Numbered from the stretch's first letter, positions 29,857 through 37,355 are shown. The stretch is 60,854 nucleotides of DNA from a bacterium (GCA_021811365.1 JAJZPB010000003.1:1-60854); one strand, 5' to 3'. The notes: generated by a model from the letters alone, not told the origin. A program made the numbers and translations.

Positions 29857-30435
29857 ATGATATTTACCCCACGCATGCAGAAGGCCGTCCGCTTTATGGT
29901 GAAGACGCACGAGGTGTACCAGAAGCAAAAGCGCAAAGGGAAAGACATTCCATACCTAACACACCCCTTTACTGCTGGCCTGATTCTTGCAAAGGCAGGT
30001 GCACACGAGGACGTGGTCATAGCGGGCCTGCTCCACGACACCATGGAGGACAGTCTCGACCACAAAAAGGTAACCCACGAGATGCTTGAAGAACGTTTTG
30101 GTAAACCGGTTGCCGACCTTGTGCAGAGTGTAAGTGAGCCGGTGAAAGACGCGGGCTGGGCAGAGCGCAAGCAAGCGGCACTGGGTCACATCGCCTTCTT
30201 CTCGCATGAATCCGTGCTTGTTAAGTCTGCCGATGTCCTGAGCAACACGGTAGAGCTGCTCGACGACTACGCCGCCGATGGCGAGGCAACGTTTGAGCGT
30301 TTCAATGCTGGGAAGACGCAAATTCTTGAGCGCACGCAAAAGGTGGTAGCCGCGCTGCTGGCGGCTTGGCCAGAAAGCCCGTTGGCAGAGGATCTTAGAA
30401 CTCTCTCGCAAGACGTTGCCAAAATGGCCGATTGA
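29857..30435 (+). CDS. HD-domain protein, RelA/SpoT hydrolase-like (small alarmone hydrolase / Mesh1 type)
   Basis: QKRKG...PYLTHP, AGLLHDTMED (HDxxED), VKSAD..SN. Confidence 0.85.
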   Translation: MIFTPRMQKAVRFMVKTHEVYQKQKRKGKDIPYLTHPFTAGLILAKAGAHEDVVIAGLLHDTMEDSLDHKKVTHEMLEERFGKPVADLVQSVSEPVKDAGWAERKQAALGHIAFFSHESVLVKSADVLSNTVELLDDYAADGEATFERFNAGKTQILERTQKVVAALLAAWPESPLAEDLRTLSQDVAKMAD

Positions 30436-30531: not shown

Positions 30532-31188
30532 ATGAGCGCGGGCATTAAACAGATGCCAGCGCATGAGCGGCCGCGCGAGAAGCTTATTGCCAAAGGCGTT
30601 GAGAACCTTTCCGACAAAGAGTTGCTCGCCATTCTTTTGCGCACCGGAAGAGCGGGGAAGAGTGCGCTCGATATCGCCGAAGGCATCCTCGCGAAGTATC
30701 CGAAAAGAAAAGTGCTCGACGTGACTTTTGAGGAACTTACAGCAGTGAAAGGAATTGATGCGGGGAAGGCGTGCACGCTGCTTGCGGCATTTGAGTTCAC
30801 GAAGCGTGCAGAGGGCGCGCGCCAAAACGGCCGGCCCATCATCGACTCTGACGAAGCGGCACTCGCGCAGCTCCACGACATCCGCGCCCACAAGAAGGAG
30901 CATTTTGTTGCGCTCTACTTGAATGCGCGCAACGAGCTCATCCACCGCGAAGACATCTCCGTAGGCACCGTAAACGCAAGCATCGTCCACCCGCGCGACG
31001 TTTTCGCCCCTGCACTCGAGCACAACGCCACAGGGGTCATCGTCGCCCACAACCATCCCTCAGGTTTCCCGGACCCCTCTCCCGAAGACCGTGAGGTCAC
31101 CACTCGCCTCCGCGAGGCAGGTAAGCTTATGGGCGTGCGGCTCATTTCGCATCTTATCCTTACGAGTGATTCGCAGCACCGGGCATGA
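30532..31188 (+). CDS. radC: RadC-family JAB-domain protein
   Basis: RPREKL...LSDKELLAILLRTG, VHPRDVF, AHNHPSG.P.PS.ED. Confidence 0.93.
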   Translation: MSAGIKQMPAHERPREKLIAKGVENLSDKELLAILLRTGRAGKSALDIAEGILAKYPKRKVLDVTFEELTAVKGIDAGKACTLLAAFEFTKRAEGARQNGRPIIDSDEAALAQLHDIRAHKKEHFVALYLNARNELIHREDISVGTVNASIVHPRDVFAPALEHNATGVIVAHNHPSGFPDPSPEDREVTTRLREAGKLMGVRLISHLILTSDSQHRA

Positions 31189-31191
31189 CCG

Positions 31192-31635
31192 TTGAGAGCA
31201 AAAGCGTTTTTGAGACGGCTTCGCGCGCTGAATAAGCTCGTCGGAGAGTACTTTCGACTAGAAAAAGGAGCTCTTATTGAAAAACATGCAGAGCTTTTGC
31301 GGGTGTTTGATGTACGCGGATCAAAGCACAAGGATCATCCACACAAAAGAATGCGGGTATACATAACTAGGCGTGCGCTTAAGCACGTTGTGGAAAGCAG
31401 AAAAGAGCAGGTGCTGATTCGCCACACGGAGGAAGAGGCACTAGAGGCAGTTTGTTTCGCGTTGGATCATATGCCGGAGACTATCATTCACTTCGACAAG
31501 TTCGAATACGAACCACCGACGTATTGTTATCAAAAAGACTTTGCACCAGAAGGAAAGCCTATGTTACGCATTGCGCTCGAGTTGCGTGCCGGTAGACTGG
31601 AAATAAAGTCGATACACTTTAAGAAAAGAAAATAA
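31192..31635 (+). CDS. Hypothetical basic protein, possibly BECR-fold nuclease-like
   Basis: 147-aa ORF right after radC; YITRRALKHVVESR and C-terminal IKSIHF resemble phage-BECR/MuF-type patterns (weak). Confidence 0.55.
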   Translation: MRAKAFLRRLRALNKLVGEYFRLEKGALIEKHAELLRVFDVRGSKHKDHPHKRMRVYITRRALKHVVESRKEQVLIRHTEEEALEAVCFALDHMPETIIHFDKFEYEPPTYCYQKDFAPEGKPMLRIALELRAGRLEIKSIHFKKRK

Positions 31636-31661
31636 GAAAACCACCCGGAGGTGGCGTTCTT
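31634..31661. terminator. Terminator hairpin with U-tract on the minus strand
   Basis: AAGAAAACCACC-cgga-GGTGGCGTTCTT; the minus strand is followed by TTTTCTTATTTTCTTTTCTT. Confidence 0.7.
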
Positions 31662-31665
31662 AGGT

Positions 31666-31771
31666 GTAGCTTGGGGGGGGGGGACGGCAGGCGCCGAAGG
31701 CGCCAGTTCCACCCATGAGTACATCGTTTGATAGATGTCCGCAGCGAGCCGATTTTCTGCCGTCAAGCCAC
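31666..31771 (-). ncRNA. Candidate ~106-nt structured small RNA of unrecognised family
   Basis: 5' GUGGCUUG-ACGGCAG pairs with 3' CUGCCGU-(C10)-CAAGCUAC; internal hairpins; consensus promoter upstream and terminator downstream; the start codon position reads GTG-GCT-TGA. Confidence 0.55.
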
Positions 31772-31777
31772 GGGCGC

Positions 31778-31806
31778 ATTATACGCAAATGGCAGCTTAA
31801 TTTCAA
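31778..31806 (-). promoter_or_regulatory. Near-consensus sigma70 promoter firing leftward
   Basis: Minus strand TTGAAA (31806-31801)-N17-TATAAT (31783-31778). Confidence 0.8.
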
Positions 31807-31878
31807 GTGAGGCCACACATTTGTGGACTGCACGCCACCCTATGAAAAATGAAGATTTTGTGGGATAGTCTTCATATT

Positions 31879-34218
31879 ATGGGCTCGCTAAACGAAGCAG
31901 AAACGCGCTCTCGCCTCATCCGGCCAGCCTTTGTGCGTGCGGGCTGGGAGGAAAAACAAATCAGCGAGGAGGTGCCGTTTACGGCTGGCCGCATCATGGT
32001 GCGCGGCAAGACCATCTCCCGCGGAGAAAAGAAGCGCGCCGACTTCGTTCTCTACTACAAAAACAACCTGCCTATCGCGGTCGTTGAAGCGAAAGATATC
32101 AGCCACACCATTTCAGACGGCATACAGCAGGCACTTGAATACGCGGACATTCTCGACATTCCGTTCGTGTATAGCTCAAACGGCGAGGGCTTTGTTGAGC
32201 ACGACAAGCTTGCAGTGGGCGCGATTGAAAAGGAGCTATCCCTCGAGGCATTTCCATCGCCCGATGAGCTGTACCAGCGCTACTGCAAGGCTAAAGGCAT
32301 TACGCAAGAAAGCGGAACAGCGCTCATACAGGAATATCATCCCACGACCAAGCCTCGTTATTTCCAGCGCGTTGCGATCAATCGCGTCGTGGAAGCAGTT
32401 GCCAAAGGGCAGCAGCGCATTTTGCTCGTCATGGCGACCGGCACGGGTAAAACGTATACTGCGTTCCAAATCATTTGGCGGCTCTGGAAGTCGAAGCAGA
32501 AGCAGCGCATCTTGTTCCTTGTTGACCGCACGGCGCTCTCCGACCAAACATTCAAAAGCGACTTCCGCCACTTTGGCGATGCTCTCACGCAAGTCAAAGG
32601 TCCAAACGTCGACCCGGCCTACGAGGTGTACATCGCGCTCTACCAAGGGCTCATGGGCGGCGAAGCTGTAGAAAAGTTCAAGCAGTTCTCGCCGGACTTC
32701 TTTGACCTCATTGTGATCGATGAGTGTCACCGCGGGAGCGCTAAAGAAGACAGCGAGTGGCGCGCCATTCTCGATTACTACCAGTCCGCGACGCAAATCG
32801 GCCTTACGGCTACGCCGAAGGCGGCTGACGACGCGAACAACTTTGAATACTTTGGCGAGCCCATTTACACCTACTCGCTCAAGCAGGGGATTGAGGACGG
32901 CTTCCTTGCGCCATACAAAGTAATCCGCTACATCACCGACAAAGAAGAGTGGCGACCCGATAGCCTTGTGCGCGATAGTGCCGGGAACGAAGTCGAAGAC
33001 CGGATCTATACCACGGCCGACTACGATGCAAAAATCGTTATTGACGCTCGTACGAAACTGGTCGCCGAAAAGGTCGTAGAATTCATGCGCCAGACCGACC
33101 CCATGCAAAAGACGATTGTCTTCTGCGTAGATCAGGATCACGCCGCGCGGATGCGCCAGGCGCTCGTCAATGCGGCGGGCGACCTCGCGCGAGAAAACGC
33201 GCGCTACGTCGTGCGCATCACGGGCGATGACCAGGCAGGGAAGCTCGAAATCGACAATTTCATCAACCCCGAATCGCCGTATCCGGTCATTGCGACCACC
33301 TCAAAGCTCCTCTCGACGGGTGTGGACACGCAGACGGTGAAGCTCATTGTGCTCGATGCGCCCATGAACTCCATGACCGAGTTTAAGCAGATCATCGGCC
33401 GTGGCACGCGCGTAAACGAGCAGTACGGCAAGTACTACTTCACCATTATGGATTTCCGCAATGTGACGCGGCTCTTTGCGGACCCCGACTTCGACGGTGA
33501 AGCGGTCGAAACCTACGACGCGAAAGCGGAAGAAACCATTCCAGTGAAAGAAATCCTCGAAAAGGAAACCGTTTCTGAAGCGGAAATCTATCGCTCAAAT
33601 CCACGCGAAGAGATTCTCATTGACGGAACGGACACGGACCCACGGCCTAAAAAGATCCACATCACCGATGGTGTCACCTTTGATGTCGTACACAAGGTCG
33701 TGCAGTACATCGACCCGGCCACCGGCAAGCTGCGTACGGACACCATTGAGAAATTTAGCCAGCAGGCTATTCTCAGCAGTTTCGCTTCGCTTGAAGACTT
33801 CCTTAGCCGGTGGAATGCCGAAACACGCAAAGAAGCGCTCATTGTTGAGCTCGAGGCGCAGGGCATCATGTTTGACGAGCTGCGCGAAGACGTCGGTCAG
33901 GATTGCGATATCTTCGATCTCATTCTGCACGTCGCCTATGGCAAGAAGCCGCTCACGCGGAGCGAGCGACTCAAGAAGGCGAGGGCTAGCGACTACTTCG
34001 CCAAGTACGAGGGCAAAGCACGGGAAATCATCGACCATCTGCTTGAGAAGTATGCGGAGCACGGCATCACCGCCATAGACGACATTGGCGACCTCACCGT
34101 TTCGCCCTTTAGCGAGTACGGCGGGCCGGTGGAGATTGTTGAGGAAATCTTTGGCGGTCGAGAGAAATACCTAGAAGTAATTCGGGAGATAGAGCAGCAG
34201 CTTTATACTGCTGAATAG
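31879..34218 (+). CDS. hsdR: Type I restriction enzyme R subunit (EcoEI/EcoAI-like)
   Basis: AD..L...N.PIAVVEAK nuclease motif; ATGTGKT, DECH, TATP; EcoEI_R_C-like HVAYGKKPLTRSER. Confidence 0.95.
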   Translation: MGSLNEAETRSRLIRPAFVRAGWEEKQISEEVPFTAGRIMVRGKTISRGEKKRADFVLYYKNNLPIAVVEAKDISHTISDGIQQALEYADILDIPFVYSSNGEGFVEHDKLAVGAIEKELSLEAFPSPDELYQRYCKAKGITQESGTALIQEYHPTTKPRYFQRVAINRVVEAVAKGQQRILLVMATGTGKTYTAFQIIWRLWKSKQKQRILFLVDRTALSDQTFKSDFRHFGDALTQVKGPNVDPAYEVYIALYQGLMGGEAVEKFKQFSPDFFDLIVIDECHRGSAKEDSEWRAILDYYQSATQIGLTATPKAADDANNFEYFGEPIYTYSLKQGIEDGFLAPYKVIRYITDKEEWRPDSLVRDSAGNEVEDRIYTTADYDAKIVIDARTKLVAEKVVEFMRQTDPMQKTIVFCVDQDHAARMRQALVNAAGDLARENARYVVRITGDDQAGKLEIDNFINPESPYPVIATTSKLLSTGVDTQTVKLIVLDAPMNSMTEFKQIIGRGTRVNEQYGKYYFTIMDFRNVTRLFADPDFDGEAVETYDAKAEETIPVKEILEKETVSEAEIYRSNPREEILIDGTDTDPRPKKIHITDGVTFDVVHKVVQYIDPATGKLRTDTIEKFSQQAILSSFASLEDFLSRWNAETRKEALIVELEAQGIMFDELREDVGQDCDIFDLILHVAYGKKPLTRSERLKKARASDYFAKYEGKAREIIDHLLEKYAEHGITAIDDIGDLTVSPFSEYGGPVEIVEEIFGGREKYLEVIREIEQQLYTAE

Positions 34219-34222
34219 CACC

Positions 34223-34744
34223 ATGAAGAAAGACGTAAACAATTACGCGTTCATAGACAGTCAAAACGTAAATCTTGCCATCCGCGAGCTCGGTTGGAGA
34301 CTCGATTGGCGTCGTTTTCGTACCTACTTAAGGGAGAAGTACGGCGTAACGAAGTCGTTTCTGTTTATTGGGTTTGTGCAAGGAAATCAGGATTTATATA
34401 CCGCACTTCAAGATGCTGGTTTTGTGTGCGTATTCAAGCCGGCACTCACGTATAAGGATGGGACCACTAAAGGAAACTGTGACGCAGAATTGGTCTTGCA
34501 GGCAATGATCGAACGAGACAACTATGATAAGGCGATTATCGTGACTGGGGATGGAGATTTCTATTGCCTCGTCAAGTACTTTATCGATCAGCAAAAGCTT
34601 GAGGTGCTGTTGGTGCCGAATAAAAAGAAGTTCTCAGCCTTGCTCAAGGCACGAATTTGCCGACCATATTTACGGTACCTAAACGACCTGCAAGAGAAGC
34701 TGGCCTATAAAAAGAAAAGGCCCCATGAGGACGAAACCTCATAG
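34223..34744 (+). CDS. NYN / LabA-DUF88 PIN-like ribonuclease
   Basis: FIDSQN, KGNCDAELV, IVTGDGDF acidic motifs. Confidence 0.9.
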   Translation: MKKDVNNYAFIDSQNVNLAIRELGWRLDWRRFRTYLREKYGVTKSFLFIGFVQGNQDLYTALQDAGFVCVFKPALTYKDGTTKGNCDAELVLQAMIERDNYDKAIIVTGDGDFYCLVKYFIDQQKLEVLLVPNKKKFSALLKARICRPYLRYLNDLQEKLAYKKKRPHEDETS

Positions 34745-36290: not shown

Positions 36291-37355
36291 ATGGCTTTTT
36301 CGAAGGTTCCAAAAATTTCAAAAAATCGAATAAATTTGGCAGGGAAAGTTCTTGCTAAAAAGAAACCAAACGGGTTAAGTCTGGAAGACGCTATTTCCAT
36401 AGCTGACGCTTGGAGGGCATGTCATGCGTACCCGATTAATACATTTCAATCAACTCTGAGACGCAAGTTAAGTAAATTTTCTAATAACCCGCTCGTTGCT
36501 CAACGACTAAAGCGCATGCCCACTATCATCGATAAATTGCATCGATATCCAAAAATGCAACTTTCCAGGATGCAGGATATTGGTGGAGTACGAGCCATCC
36601 TGGGATCCGTTCACGATGTTTATCTGTTGGCAGAAGAATACAAAGACAAAAGCCGCTTCGCGCATGAGCTTATAGGACAAAAAGACTACATTAAATGTCC
36701 TCGTGACGACGATGGGTACAGAAGTCTCCACCTTATATATAAGTATAAGAATAAGCAGGCACAAGAATACGACGGATTGTTGCTTGAGTTGCAAATACGA
36801 ACCAAATTACAACATACATGGGCAACTGCGGTTGAGACTATGGGTACTTTTCTTGGACAAGCCCTAAAATCACGACTAGGAGACAAGGCTTGGCTCGAGT
36901 TCTTTTCAGCTGTTAGCTCGACTTTTGCTTCTATCGAAAACACAAACTTGCTTGAGAAGCATAAAGCTCTATCTCAGGAAGAACTTTTTCGTAAAGTTGC
37001 TTCGATGAACGGTGAGCTAAGGGTCCTCGAAAAAATAAGAGGATATTCTATTGCGGTAAATGAAATAAACAAGAGAGGTACTTCCGACGTGGGCTGGTCC
37101 TACCATCTAATTATTTTGAATTCCGAACAGAAGACTGTACAGATCAAGCCATACAAAAGAGGAAGTATTAAACAAGCGACGGAGGATTATTCGAAAGTTG
37201 AAGAGGAGGCTACTCGAGGGAAGAAAATTGAAGCAGTTTTAGTGTCGGCGGGCCCTCTGTCTGCACTGAGACAAGCATACCCGAACTTCTTTCTTGATAT
37301 AAGCGATTTTGTCGGCCGGATTGAGTCGATCGTTGCTGAAAGCAAGAAATTATGA
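36291..37355 (+). CDS. RelA/SpoT synthetase-domain protein, fused CapRel-like toxin-antitoxin
   Basis: WRACHAYP, QRLKR, MQDIGGVR, GYRSLH, ELQIRT..QH.WATAVE; C-terminal VLVS....LRQAYPNFF resembles the CapRel antitoxin anchor. Confidence 0.85.
   Translation: MAFSKVPKISKNRINLAGKVLAKKKPNGLSLEDAISIADAWRACHAYPINTFQSTLRRKLSKFSNNPLVAQRLKRMPTIIDKLHRYPKMQLSRMQDIGGVRAILGSVHDVYLLAEEYKDKSRFAHELIGQKDYIKCPRDDDGYRSLHLIYKYKNKQAQEYDGLLLELQIRTKLQHTWATAVETMGTFLGQALKSRLGDKAWLEFFSAVSSTFASIENTNLLEKHKALSQEELFRKVASMNGELRVLEKIRGYSIAVNEINKRGTSDVGWSYHLIILNSEQKTVQIKPYKRGSIKQATEDYSKVEEEATRGKKIEAVLVSAGPLSALRQAYPNFFLDISDFVGRIESIVAESKKL

What the first reader, a model, noticed from the sequence alone, without database searches (positions are those of the whole stretch)
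31634..31806. Orphan transcription unit: ~106-nt RNA with paired ends and a bulged poly-C tract, upstream of hsdR
Seen on the minus strand: TTGAAA-N17-TATAAT, then 6 nt later GUGGCUUGACGGCAG. This pairs with CUGCCGU-(C)10-CAAGCUAC, giving a 15-bp terminal helix with a 10-C bulge. Internal hairpins are ACAUC/GAUGU and GGCGCC-uuc-GGCGCC, and a U-tailed terminator follows. The leaderless start position gives only GTG-GCT-TGA. The RNA lacks tRNA, tmRNA and SRP signatures. Inference: a novel sRNA. It could be a C-rich SD-pairing regulator, an RNA antitoxin or partner for the convergent basic ORF 31192-31635, or a Y-RNA-like scaffold.
Basis: partly seen in the sequence, partly recalled or inferred. 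Interest (0 to 1): 0.7.

Follow-up and report, generated by a model that had tools for sequence, protein, structure and literature searches.

The report
Conserved small RNA partnering toxin-like RNase
The predicted small RNA is real and belongs to a previously undescribed RNA family that sits tail-to-tail with a toxin-like ribonuclease gene in tiny "candidate phyla radiation" bacteria. It is most likely the RNA that keeps that enzyme in check, and it has nothing specific to do with the restriction gene next to it.

Summary
On the minus strand there is an 11/12 sigma-70 promoter, a ~108-nt strongly folded core (31771→31664) and an intrinsic terminator.

The RNA is not an orphan and is not tied to hsdR. 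It lies convergent to, and ~26 nt from the stop of, ORF 31192-31635. In 37 of 39 independent Patescibacteria loci that encode a relative of this ORF (28-66% identity), the same RNA occupies the same position.

No Rfam 15 family matches. Covariation supports an 8-bp terminal helix, two hairpins and a 6-bp helix, here called "X".

The ORF is a solo PBECR3/BECR-fold predicted RNase (AF2 pLDDT 93; His65 and Ser140 conserved) with no conserved protein partner. The cassette is rare and sits in varied contexts.

Best reading (~50%): a type III-like toxin-antitoxin or RNase-inhibitor pair with a new toxin fold, a new RNA and a new gene layout.

The parts
31778..31806 (-). Promoter of the sRNA: -35 TTGAAA (31806-31801), 17-nt spacer, -10 TATAAT (31783-31778). 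The start G at 31771 lies 6 nt downstream.
   Evidence: 11 of 12 consensus matches. A promoter-like site of at least 8/12 at the equivalent place occurs in 24 of 34 homologous loci.
31664..31771 (-). Structured core of the sRNA (108 nt): P1a, a conserved junction, P2, helix X enclosing P3, then P1a again.
   Evidence: Fold z = -4.6. CM hits occur in 37 loci. Covariation is shown. About 40 G·U cells fit this strand only.
31764..31771 (-). P1a 5' strand GUGGCUUG. It pairs with CAAGCUAC at 31673-31666.
   Evidence: All 8 pairs show changes on both sides across 30 distinct sequences.
31721..31738 (-). P2 hairpin ACAUC-UAUCAAAC-GAUGU, with a conserved 8-nt loop.
   Evidence: The pair UA:16/CG:12 covaries.
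31708..31714 (-). 5' strand of helix X (GGGUGGA).
   Evidence: It covaries with the C-rich 3' strand. Examples: GGGU:ACCC, GAGC:GCUC, AGGU:ACCU, GGAU:AUCC, AAGG:CCUU, GGAGAA:UUCUCC. 96.7% of cells are paired.
31690..31704 (-). P3 hairpin GGCGCC-UUC-GGCGCC. Sequence and length vary in the family, and L042 lacks it.
   Evidence: 5 of 6 pairs show compensatory changes. The L042 variant is shown.
31673..31684 (-). U + C11, which reads as G11 on the + strand at 31673-31683. It comprises the 3' strand of helix X (U plus about 5 C), about 5 surplus C, and the last C closing P1a.
   Evidence: Longest G/C homopolymer in the genome. The nearest relative L072 has C6, all paired; L074 has UCCUCC and L075 has UCCACC. 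A second assembly (L071) also has 11.
31630..31655 (.). Bidirectional intrinsic terminator (GCCACCUCCGGGUGGU plus a U tract) shared by the sRNA and the convergent ORF.
   Evidence: A hairpin plus T run is present in essentially all 34 loci. The distance from ORF stop to RNA core is about 26 nt in most loci.
31192..31635 (+). ORF147: a solo PBECR3/BECR-fold predicted RNase and the conserved partner of the sRNA. Its TTG start lies 3 nt after the radC stop.
   Evidence: Homologues. AF2 pLDDT 93.3. Foldseek hits BrnT, ParE, RelE and YoeB in PDB and MuF-C/polyvalent proteins in BFVD. Sub-threshold PF18812 matches appear in 6 of 15 members, and three members carry a precomputed PF18812 annotation. 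K64, H65, E68 and R70 are invariant; R126, S140 and H142 are conserved.

Best explanation
The unit is one half of a compact two-gene cassette found sporadically in Patescibacteria. The cassette has a solo PBECR3/BECR-fold ribonuclease gene (31192-31635, +) and, tail-to-tail with it, a ~108-nt structured sRNA (31771-31664, -). The sRNA has its own strong promoter and shares a bidirectional terminator with the RNase gene.

Shown here:
- The RNA gene and its conserved fold: P1a of 8 bp, stacked on a 6-bp helix X that encloses an internal loop with invariant UGCCG and hairpin P3; hairpin P2; and about 35 nearly invariant junction nucleotides (GACGNCAGAAA, AUCGGCUYGCUGCGG, GUACUMAUG).
- Near-obligate linkage and fixed geometry with the RNase gene, holding down to 28% protein identity.
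- The RNase-type fold and conserved His/Ser site of the protein.
- No conserved protein partner.

Inferred: the RNA binds the RNase through its three-dimensional shape and holds it inactive. This would be a type III-like toxin-antitoxin or RNase-inhibitor pair. The RNA is made in excess from a near-consensus promoter, while the RNase gene here has a TTG start and no obvious SD. Loss of RNA supply, for example on phage attack or loss of the cassette, would free the RNase.

The C11 tract is a lineage-specific slippage expansion (C6 to C11) of the 3' strand of helix X. It leaves about five unpaired C at the X/P1a junction. It is not a defining feature of the family.
For: RNA gene and fold:
- Promoter, fold and terminator are present.
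- Promoters and terminators are conserved in position across loci.
- Covariation: 22 of 33 pairs change on both sides, 91% of cells are paired, and 0 of 500 shuffles reach this.
- An unbiased MI ranking and a MAFFT+RNAalifold run recover the same helices.

Linkage:
- RNA searches found the protein in 3 of 3 cases.
- Protein searches found the RNA in 37 of 39 distinct loci with room for it.
- The stop-to-RNA gap is about 26 nt.

Protein:
- AF2 pLDDT 93.
- RelE/BrnT/ParE-like hits in PDB and MuF-C/polyvalent PBECR hits in BFVD with probability 1.0.
- PF18812 matches over profile positions 22-111 of 115.
- His in the first core helix and C-terminal Ser match the PBECR active-site description in PMC5512222.

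Selfish or defence-like distribution:
- Present in 4 of 151 genomes of the genus and 1 of 401 of the phylum sample.
- 113 representatives among 1.84 billion proteins.
- Neighbours range from rplB, rpsG, dnaX, dnaK and pilins to MazF, MmeI, SocA, IS110 and type I R-M genes.

Other:
- No antisense match to the ORF 5' region beyond shuffled controls.
- Precedent for a structured RNA neutralising a non-ToxN RNase by binding: AbiF/RCd22 (PMC12373285).
Against:
- Known type III antitoxins are tandem repeats upstream on the same strand and are processed by the toxin. This RNA is single-copy and convergent.
- Closed ends plus a terminator hairpin suggest a stable RNA, whereas antitoxins are usually the labile partner.
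- One locus (L077) has an apparently intact protein without the RNA, and one (L051) has only the RNA's 5' half.
- The window protein itself does not reach any Pfam threshold.
- In the window, G12 makes the alternative P1b helix perfect, so this copy may fold differently.
Confidence: 0.5

Rival explanations
1. Functional ribonucleoprotein rather than toxin-antitoxin pair. The RNA would be the RNase's cofactor, specificity element, sensor or dedicated substrate, for example a tRNA-like decoy or guide. The pair would act together on foreign or host RNA.
For: The linkage and fixed geometry are the same as for the main explanation. About 35 junction nucleotides stay nearly invariant while the protein drops to 28% identity, which suggests a functional RNA core. 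The possible four-arm layout (P1a, CAG:CUG helix, P2, X) has X stacked directly on P1a, as the T arm stacks on the acceptor stem in tRNA. BECR RNases often act on tRNA (PMC5512222).
Against: ARAGORN and Rfam see nothing tRNA-like. The P2 loop has 8 nt and lacks U33. The CAG:CUG helix rests on a single covarying sequence, L065. No guide-like variable segment exists apart from the P3 and P1a stems.
Confidence: 0.2
2. Type I-like antisense control. The two convergent transcripts overlap at the shared terminator by about 25-30 nt. Duplex formation or transcriptional interference lowers the RNase mRNA, as in par/fst or B. subtilis txpA/RatA.
For: Convergent genes with a shared bidirectional terminator occur in all loci, with a constant ~26-nt spacing.
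Against: The conserved, covarying 108-nt core lies wholly outside the overlap, and antisense action would not need it. There is no extra complementarity to the ORF 5' region. Type I toxins are small membrane peptides, not 147-aa RNases.
Confidence: 0.12
3. Local regulator of the type I R-M operon. The G11 tract or the divergent sRNA would control hsdR, either by phase variation or as a C-rich regulator pairing with SD sequences.
For: G11 is the longest G/C run in the genome and lies 166 nt upstream of the hsdR ATG. The tract length differs between relatives, C6 versus C11.
Against: The RNA is next to hsdR only in this organism. The tract is absent from 30+ homologues and is base-paired in the family fold. 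A second assembly shows the same length.
Confidence: 0.04

Closest known systems
Type III toxin-antitoxin systems (ToxIN, CptIN, TenpIN)
   Same: A protein endoribonuclease is paired with a structured non-coding RNA and no protein antitoxin. The cassette is small, sporadic and self-contained, and is sometimes found among defence genes.
   Different: The toxin fold is BECR/PBECR3, not ToxN/AbiQ. The RNA is one ~108-nt multi-helix molecule, not 34-36-nt tandem repeats. The RNA gene is convergent with its own promoter and a shared terminator, not upstream on the same strand. Binding and inhibition are untested.
AbiF-RCd22 (abiF RNA motif) of Clostridioides difficile, PMC12373285
   Same: It shows that a non-ToxN RNase toxin can be neutralised by direct binding of a dedicated structured ncRNA. 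That is the mechanism proposed here.
   Different: The toxin is HEPN (Abi_2/AbiD/F), not BECR. The RNA carries two abiF motifs and lies in the 5' region of the toxin gene. No Rfam abiF match was found here.
PBECR3 (PF18812) and colicin D / BrnT / RelE-type BECR RNases
   Same: Same fold and predicted metal-independent active site: His in the first core helix and Ser/Thr near the C terminus. These proteins have roles in conflict systems.
   Different: Known members are domains of phage polyvalent/MuF proteins, or toxins with protein immunity or antitoxin partners. Here the protein is solo, chromosomal in Patescibacteria, absent from IMG/VR, and partnered with an RNA.
Convergent type I systems with shared bidirectional terminator (par/fst RNA I-RNA II; txpA/RatA)
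   Same: Tail-to-tail toxin gene and RNA gene sharing a terminator.
   Different: Those RNAs act by antisense pairing on mRNAs of small membrane peptides. Here the conserved RNA body lies outside the overlap, and the protein is a 147-aa RNase-fold enzyme.

Membership tests
Type III TA (ToxIN/CptIN/TenpIN) | Antitoxin RNA made of tandem direct repeats upstream of the toxin gene on the same strand | tested here: not met
   The RNA is single-copy and convergent, and the alignments show no repeats.
Type III TA (ToxIN/CptIN/TenpIN) | Toxin of the ToxN/AbiQ-type fold or family | tested here: not met
   No Pfam, PADLOC or PHROG hit of that kind was found. The fold is BECR/RelE-like.
Type III TA (ToxIN/CptIN/TenpIN) | RNA binds the toxin protein directly and inhibits it | not testable with these tools
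   Needs co-expression, co-purification or EMSA.
Type I TA | Small (<60 aa) hydrophobic toxin and antisense complementarity to its mRNA | tested here: not met
   The protein is a soluble 147-aa α/β protein. The only overlap is the ~25-nt terminator. The 5' region gives no duplex better than shuffled controls.
PBECR3 (PF18812) | Match to the family HMM above the gathering score | tested here: inconclusive
   The window protein gives no hit. 6 of 15 relatives score 16-22 bits against a GA of 30, in one register covering profile 22-111/115. Three family members (P0160, P0173, P0216) carry a precomputed PF18812 annotation, marked weak for P0216.
PBECR3 (PF18812) | BECR core fold with His in the first helix and C-terminal Ser/Thr | tested here: met
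   The AF2 model has the topology β-α-α-β-β-β-β over residues 55-144. Foldseek gives BrnT at probability 0.97 and MuF-C/polyvalent proteins at probability 1.0. H65 is invariant and S140 nearly so. The criterion comes from PMC5512222.
Any Rfam 15 family (including abiF, Y RNA, SRP, tmRNA, ribozymes) | Covariance-model match | tested here: not met
   The window has no hit at gathering thresholds. The best E-values are 0.04 (a miRNA model) and 0.07 (STAXI). Seven homologous loci also give none.
Y RNA / Ro RNP | Ro60 (TROVE) protein encoded in the genome | tested here: not met
   PF05731 is absent from the genome, while the controls are detected.
tRNA / tmRNA | Recognised by ARAGORN | tested here: not met
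   0 genes in the whole window.
Phase-variable homopolymer (contingency) tract | Tract length polymorphic within a population | not testable with these tools
A second assembly gives the same G11. Between species the tract is C6 versus C11.

The most novel reading that the evidence does not exclude
The RNA is a cloverleaf-like, four-arm pseudo-substrate: a tRNA mimic whose X/P3 arm stacks on the terminal helix. It would plug the active site of a colicin-D-type tRNase. That would make this the first RNA antitoxin for the BECR/RelE superfamily and the first RNA-protein toxin-antitoxin class specific to candidate-phyla-radiation bacteria. Alternatively, the RNA could be a sensor that releases or activates the RNase on phage attack.
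Probability: 0.15. Interest if true: 0.85.

Novelty: new variant of a known kind. Interest (0 to 1): 0.66.

Why it matters
BECR/RelE-fold RNases are among the commonest toxins in microbial conflict. As far as I know, and as far as the library searches showed, they are always held in check by proteins.

A dedicated structured RNA strictly coupled to one such RNase would extend RNA-based toxin control (type III) in three ways: a new toxin fold, a non-repetitive RNA architecture, and a new gene layout.

It would also give Patescibacteria, whose non-coding RNAs and defence systems are barely charted, a defined RNA family. That family now has about 37 members, a covariation-supported fold and an obvious partner, so it is ready for bench tests. 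The invariant junction nucleotides point to a specific RNA-protein interface or RNA active core worth solving.

Tried and rejected
- Rfam search at gathering and E-value thresholds on the window and seven homologues: nothing.
- ARAGORN: nothing.
- BLAST of the unit against 60 relatives: only the 15-mer GGCGCCTTCGGCGCC recurred. Those sites are ordinary terminators or a comF-like coding motif, not homologues.
- Housekeeping RNA idea: rejected, because the RNA is in only 4 of 151 genomes of the genus and 1 of 401 of the phylum sample.
- SRP RNA models find nothing in this genome or in 20 relatives, so that absence is lineage-wide and unrelated.
- Y-RNA idea: no TROVE gene.
- IS200-like HUH transposase idea (from HPH49-51 plus Tyr): rejected. 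There is no Y1_Tnp hit, the HPH segment is deleted in divergent members, and the fold is BECR.
- HEPN idea (from R60-x4-H65): rejected, because the fold is α/β, not all-helical.
- Antisense pairing to the ORF 5' region: not better than shuffles.
- Phage origin: no relatives in IMG/VR. Three pattern hits there were chance. No PHROG or PADLOC family matched.
- Riboswitch-controlled antisense read-through: considered and rejected on inspection of the sequence. P1a does not overlap or pair with the terminator.
- The P1b helix (ACGNCA:UGCCGU) has no covariation and a conserved mismatch in 28 of 30 sequences. It would clash with helix X.
- Search with the most divergent protein (L065) found no further relatives.

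Full report
**1. The observation**

Reading 31100-32100 on the minus strand shows these features:
- TTGAAA (31806-31801), a 17-nt spacer, then TATAAT (31783-31778).
- Six bases further on, GUGGCUUGACGGCAG starting at 31771.
- The hairpins ACAUC/GAUGU and GGCGCC-UUC-GGCGCC.
- CUGCCGU followed by eleven C (31683-31673) and AAGCUAC.
- A GC hairpin with a U tail at 31655-31640.

The consensus scan finds this as the only promoter-like site in 31000-32200 (11 of 12 matches) and finds the terminator. The 142-nt transcript folds at -59.8 kcal/mol, z = -4.6, and no shuffle of 200 folds as well. The tract is the longest G/C homopolymer in the 788-kb, 56% GC genome; the next longest is 8. No tRNA or tmRNA is detected. 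No Rfam 15 family matches at gathering or at meaningful E-values.

**2. It is not an orphan**

The genome is small (0.79 Mb, 97% complete), as in Patescibacteria. BLAST of the unit against 60 relatives found nothing except a 15-mer hairpin that proved to be ordinary terminators or coding sequence.

The convergent ORF 31192-31635 has real homologues (17 at first, 43-66% identity). A covariance model built from the window sequence alone found the RNA just downstream of the homologue, on the opposite strand, in four unrelated contexts (E 2e-14 to 1e-8).

Further searches extended this:
- A refined model recovered three more copies in the same genus, each with the protein gene beside it.
- Protein-led searches of GTDB genomes and metagenomes gave the RNA in every locus with enough downstream sequence, with two exceptions.
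- Three very divergent proteins (28-34% identity) also carry it.

The tally is 37 of 39 distinct loci. L077 lacks the RNA and L051 has only its 5' half.

The distance from the ORF stop to the RNA core is about 26 nt in most loci, just the length of a shared bidirectional terminator. A promoter-like site of at least 8/12 sits at the right distance in 24 of 34 loci, and a hairpin plus T run follows in essentially all.

radC and hsdR are neighbours only in this organism. Elsewhere the cassette lies beside rplB, rpsG, ddl/uvrC, dnaX, dnaK, pilin genes, a MazF gene, MmeI, ResIII plus SocA, IS110/Rep, or an integrase.

The cassette is rare:
- 4 of 151 genomes of the genus and 1 of 401 of a phylum-wide sample.
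- 113 representatives among 1.84 billion protein clusters.
- None in IMG/VR.

Public titles of the loci name Nomurabacteria, Paceibacterota, Parcubacteria and one Saccharibacteria MAG.

**3. The RNA structure**

On 30 distinct sequences, 22 of 33 pairs show changes on both sides and 91% of cells are paired. No shuffle or slid register comes close. An unbiased mutual-information ranking and an independent MAFFT+RNAalifold run (17 of 25 pairs compensatory) give the same helices:
- P1a: 8 bp joining the two ends.
- P2: a hairpin with a 5-bp stem and a conserved 8-nt loop.
- P3: a hairpin of variable sequence and length, absent in L042.
- Helix X: 6 bp, GGGUGA:UCACCC in most members.

Helix X covaries through GAGC:GCUC, AGGU:ACCU, GGAU:AUCC, AAGG:CCUU, GGAC:GUCC and GGAGAA:UUCUCC. 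X abuts P1a with no linker. It encloses an internal loop carrying invariant UGCCG, plus P3.

About 35 junction nucleotides are nearly invariant even where the proteins share under 35% identity: GACGNCAGAAA, AUCGGCUYGCUGCGG, GUACUMAUG and GAAAUG. Some 40 G·U cells fit the minus strand only.

There, a unique G12 makes that helix perfect, and the family fold is only 2.4 kcal/mol above the MFE.

One divergent member (L065) changes CAG...CUG to GUGG...CCAC, hinting at a further short helix and a four-arm junction. Variable hairpins are inserted in its loop in L047 and L065. This part is tentative.

**4. The poly-C tract**

In the family, the 'bulge' is the 3' strand of helix X. In the window's nearest relatives it reads UCCCCC (L072; C6 counting the P1a C, all paired with GGG(U)GGA), UCCUCC (L074) and UCCACC (L075).

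The window has the same 5' strand but eleven C, that is, about five surplus C at the X/P1a junction. The simplest reading is that a substitution created a C run, which then expanded by slippage. An independent Logan assembly of the same locus is 100% identical over 3.6 kb and also has eleven.

**5. The partner protein**

- AlphaFold2 on a 15-sequence alignment gives pLDDT 93.3 and pTM 0.85. The model has an N-terminal helix and a β-α-α-β-β-β-β core.
- Foldseek against PDB ranks the RelE-like RNase toxin BrnT first (probability 0.97), followed by ParE, YoeB, HigB2, RelE and Cami1. The E-values are modest.
- Against BFVD, the top hits are phage polyvalent and MuF-C proteins (probability 1.0, TM about 0.5 over about 150 columns).
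- Six of 15 members match Pfam PBECR3 below threshold in one register covering nearly the whole profile. Three members of the wider family carry a precomputed PF18812 annotation.
- Iyer et al. 2017 (PMC5512222) describe the PBECR site as a His in the N-terminal helix plus a C-terminal Ser/Thr. Here K64-H65 (helix 60-74), E68 and R70 are invariant, and R126, S140 and H142 are conserved.
- The HPH49-51 motif is lost in divergent members, so it is not catalytic.
- No PADLOC, PHROG or NCBIfam family matches.
- No protein gene is conserved beside it.

**6. Mechanism**

A solo BECR RNase is normally a toxin that needs an inhibitor. The only conserved neighbour is this RNA.

The RNA body lies outside the short terminator overlap. 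It has no complementarity to the ORF 5' region beyond shuffled controls. So its conserved shape, not antisense pairing, is what selection maintains.

I therefore favour direct RNA-protein binding that holds the RNase inactive. This is type III-like, with precedent in AbiF/RCd22 (PMC12373285). I put it at about 50%. The rivals are:
- An RNP in which the RNA is cofactor, decoy or substrate (about 20%).
- Terminator-overlap antisense control (about 12%).
- A local role at hsdR, or phase variation (about 4%).

None of the mechanistic steps is demonstrated. Only the genetic coupling, the fold and the protein family are.

**7. Novelty**

The RNA is in no Rfam 15 family. Literature searches found no description of it, nor of an RNA partner for BECR/PBECR proteins.

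Compared with type III systems, it differs in toxin fold, RNA architecture and gene layout. It fails their defining repeat and ToxN criteria, so I file it as a new variant that may work like them, not as a member.

Noticed in passing
window 36291-37355 (and 34223-34744, 29857-30435): The RelA/SpoT-domain gene inside the type I R-M operon matches the PADLOC candidate family PDC-S33 at E 1.8e-121. A NYN nuclease gene sits between hsdR and hsdM. A SpoT-like HD hydrolase gene lies just upstream of radC.
   Followed up: partly
whole genome G000 and 20 relatives: Neither Rfam SRP RNA model (RF00169, RF01854) finds anything in this 97%-complete genome. RF00169 also finds nothing in 20 relatives of the order, although the controls are detected. 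The SRP RNA of this lineage may be very divergent, or it may be missed by the first-look filter.
   Followed up: no
window 31192-31635: The gene on record for this ORF is a 94-aa truncation starting at M54 (P0003). Homologues show the full 147-aa frame. Its TTG start lies 3 nt after the radC stop, which suggests translational coupling to radC in this genome only.
   Followed up: partly
L077:880-1332 and flanks: This is the one locus where an apparently intact family protein lacks the RNA. Two unannotated 69-70-aa ORFs lie directly upstream and could be a protein substitute for the RNA.
   Followed up: partly
L051:490-598: Only the 5' half of the RNA is present, abutting the ORF end. This is either a natural deletion or an assembly artefact.
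   Followed up: no
L007, L009, L012, L016, L018, L020 (relatives): The exact 15-mer GGCGCCTTCGGCGCC recurs many times in related genomes (8 copies in G010). It appears as terminator hairpins after genes and tRNAs, and inside a conserved comF-like coding motif.
   Followed up: partly
L026:1125-3266: A tyrosine recombinase gene split by an intein with a LAGLIDADG domain lies next to the cassette.
   Followed up: no
L081 contig (JAYUPL010000007.1) and L042 (JAYUPL010000014.1): One Parcubacteria MAG carries at least two, possibly three, divergent copies of the protein family. P0183 and P0195 are on the same 129-kb contig and L042 is on another. At least two of them have the RNA.
   Followed up: no
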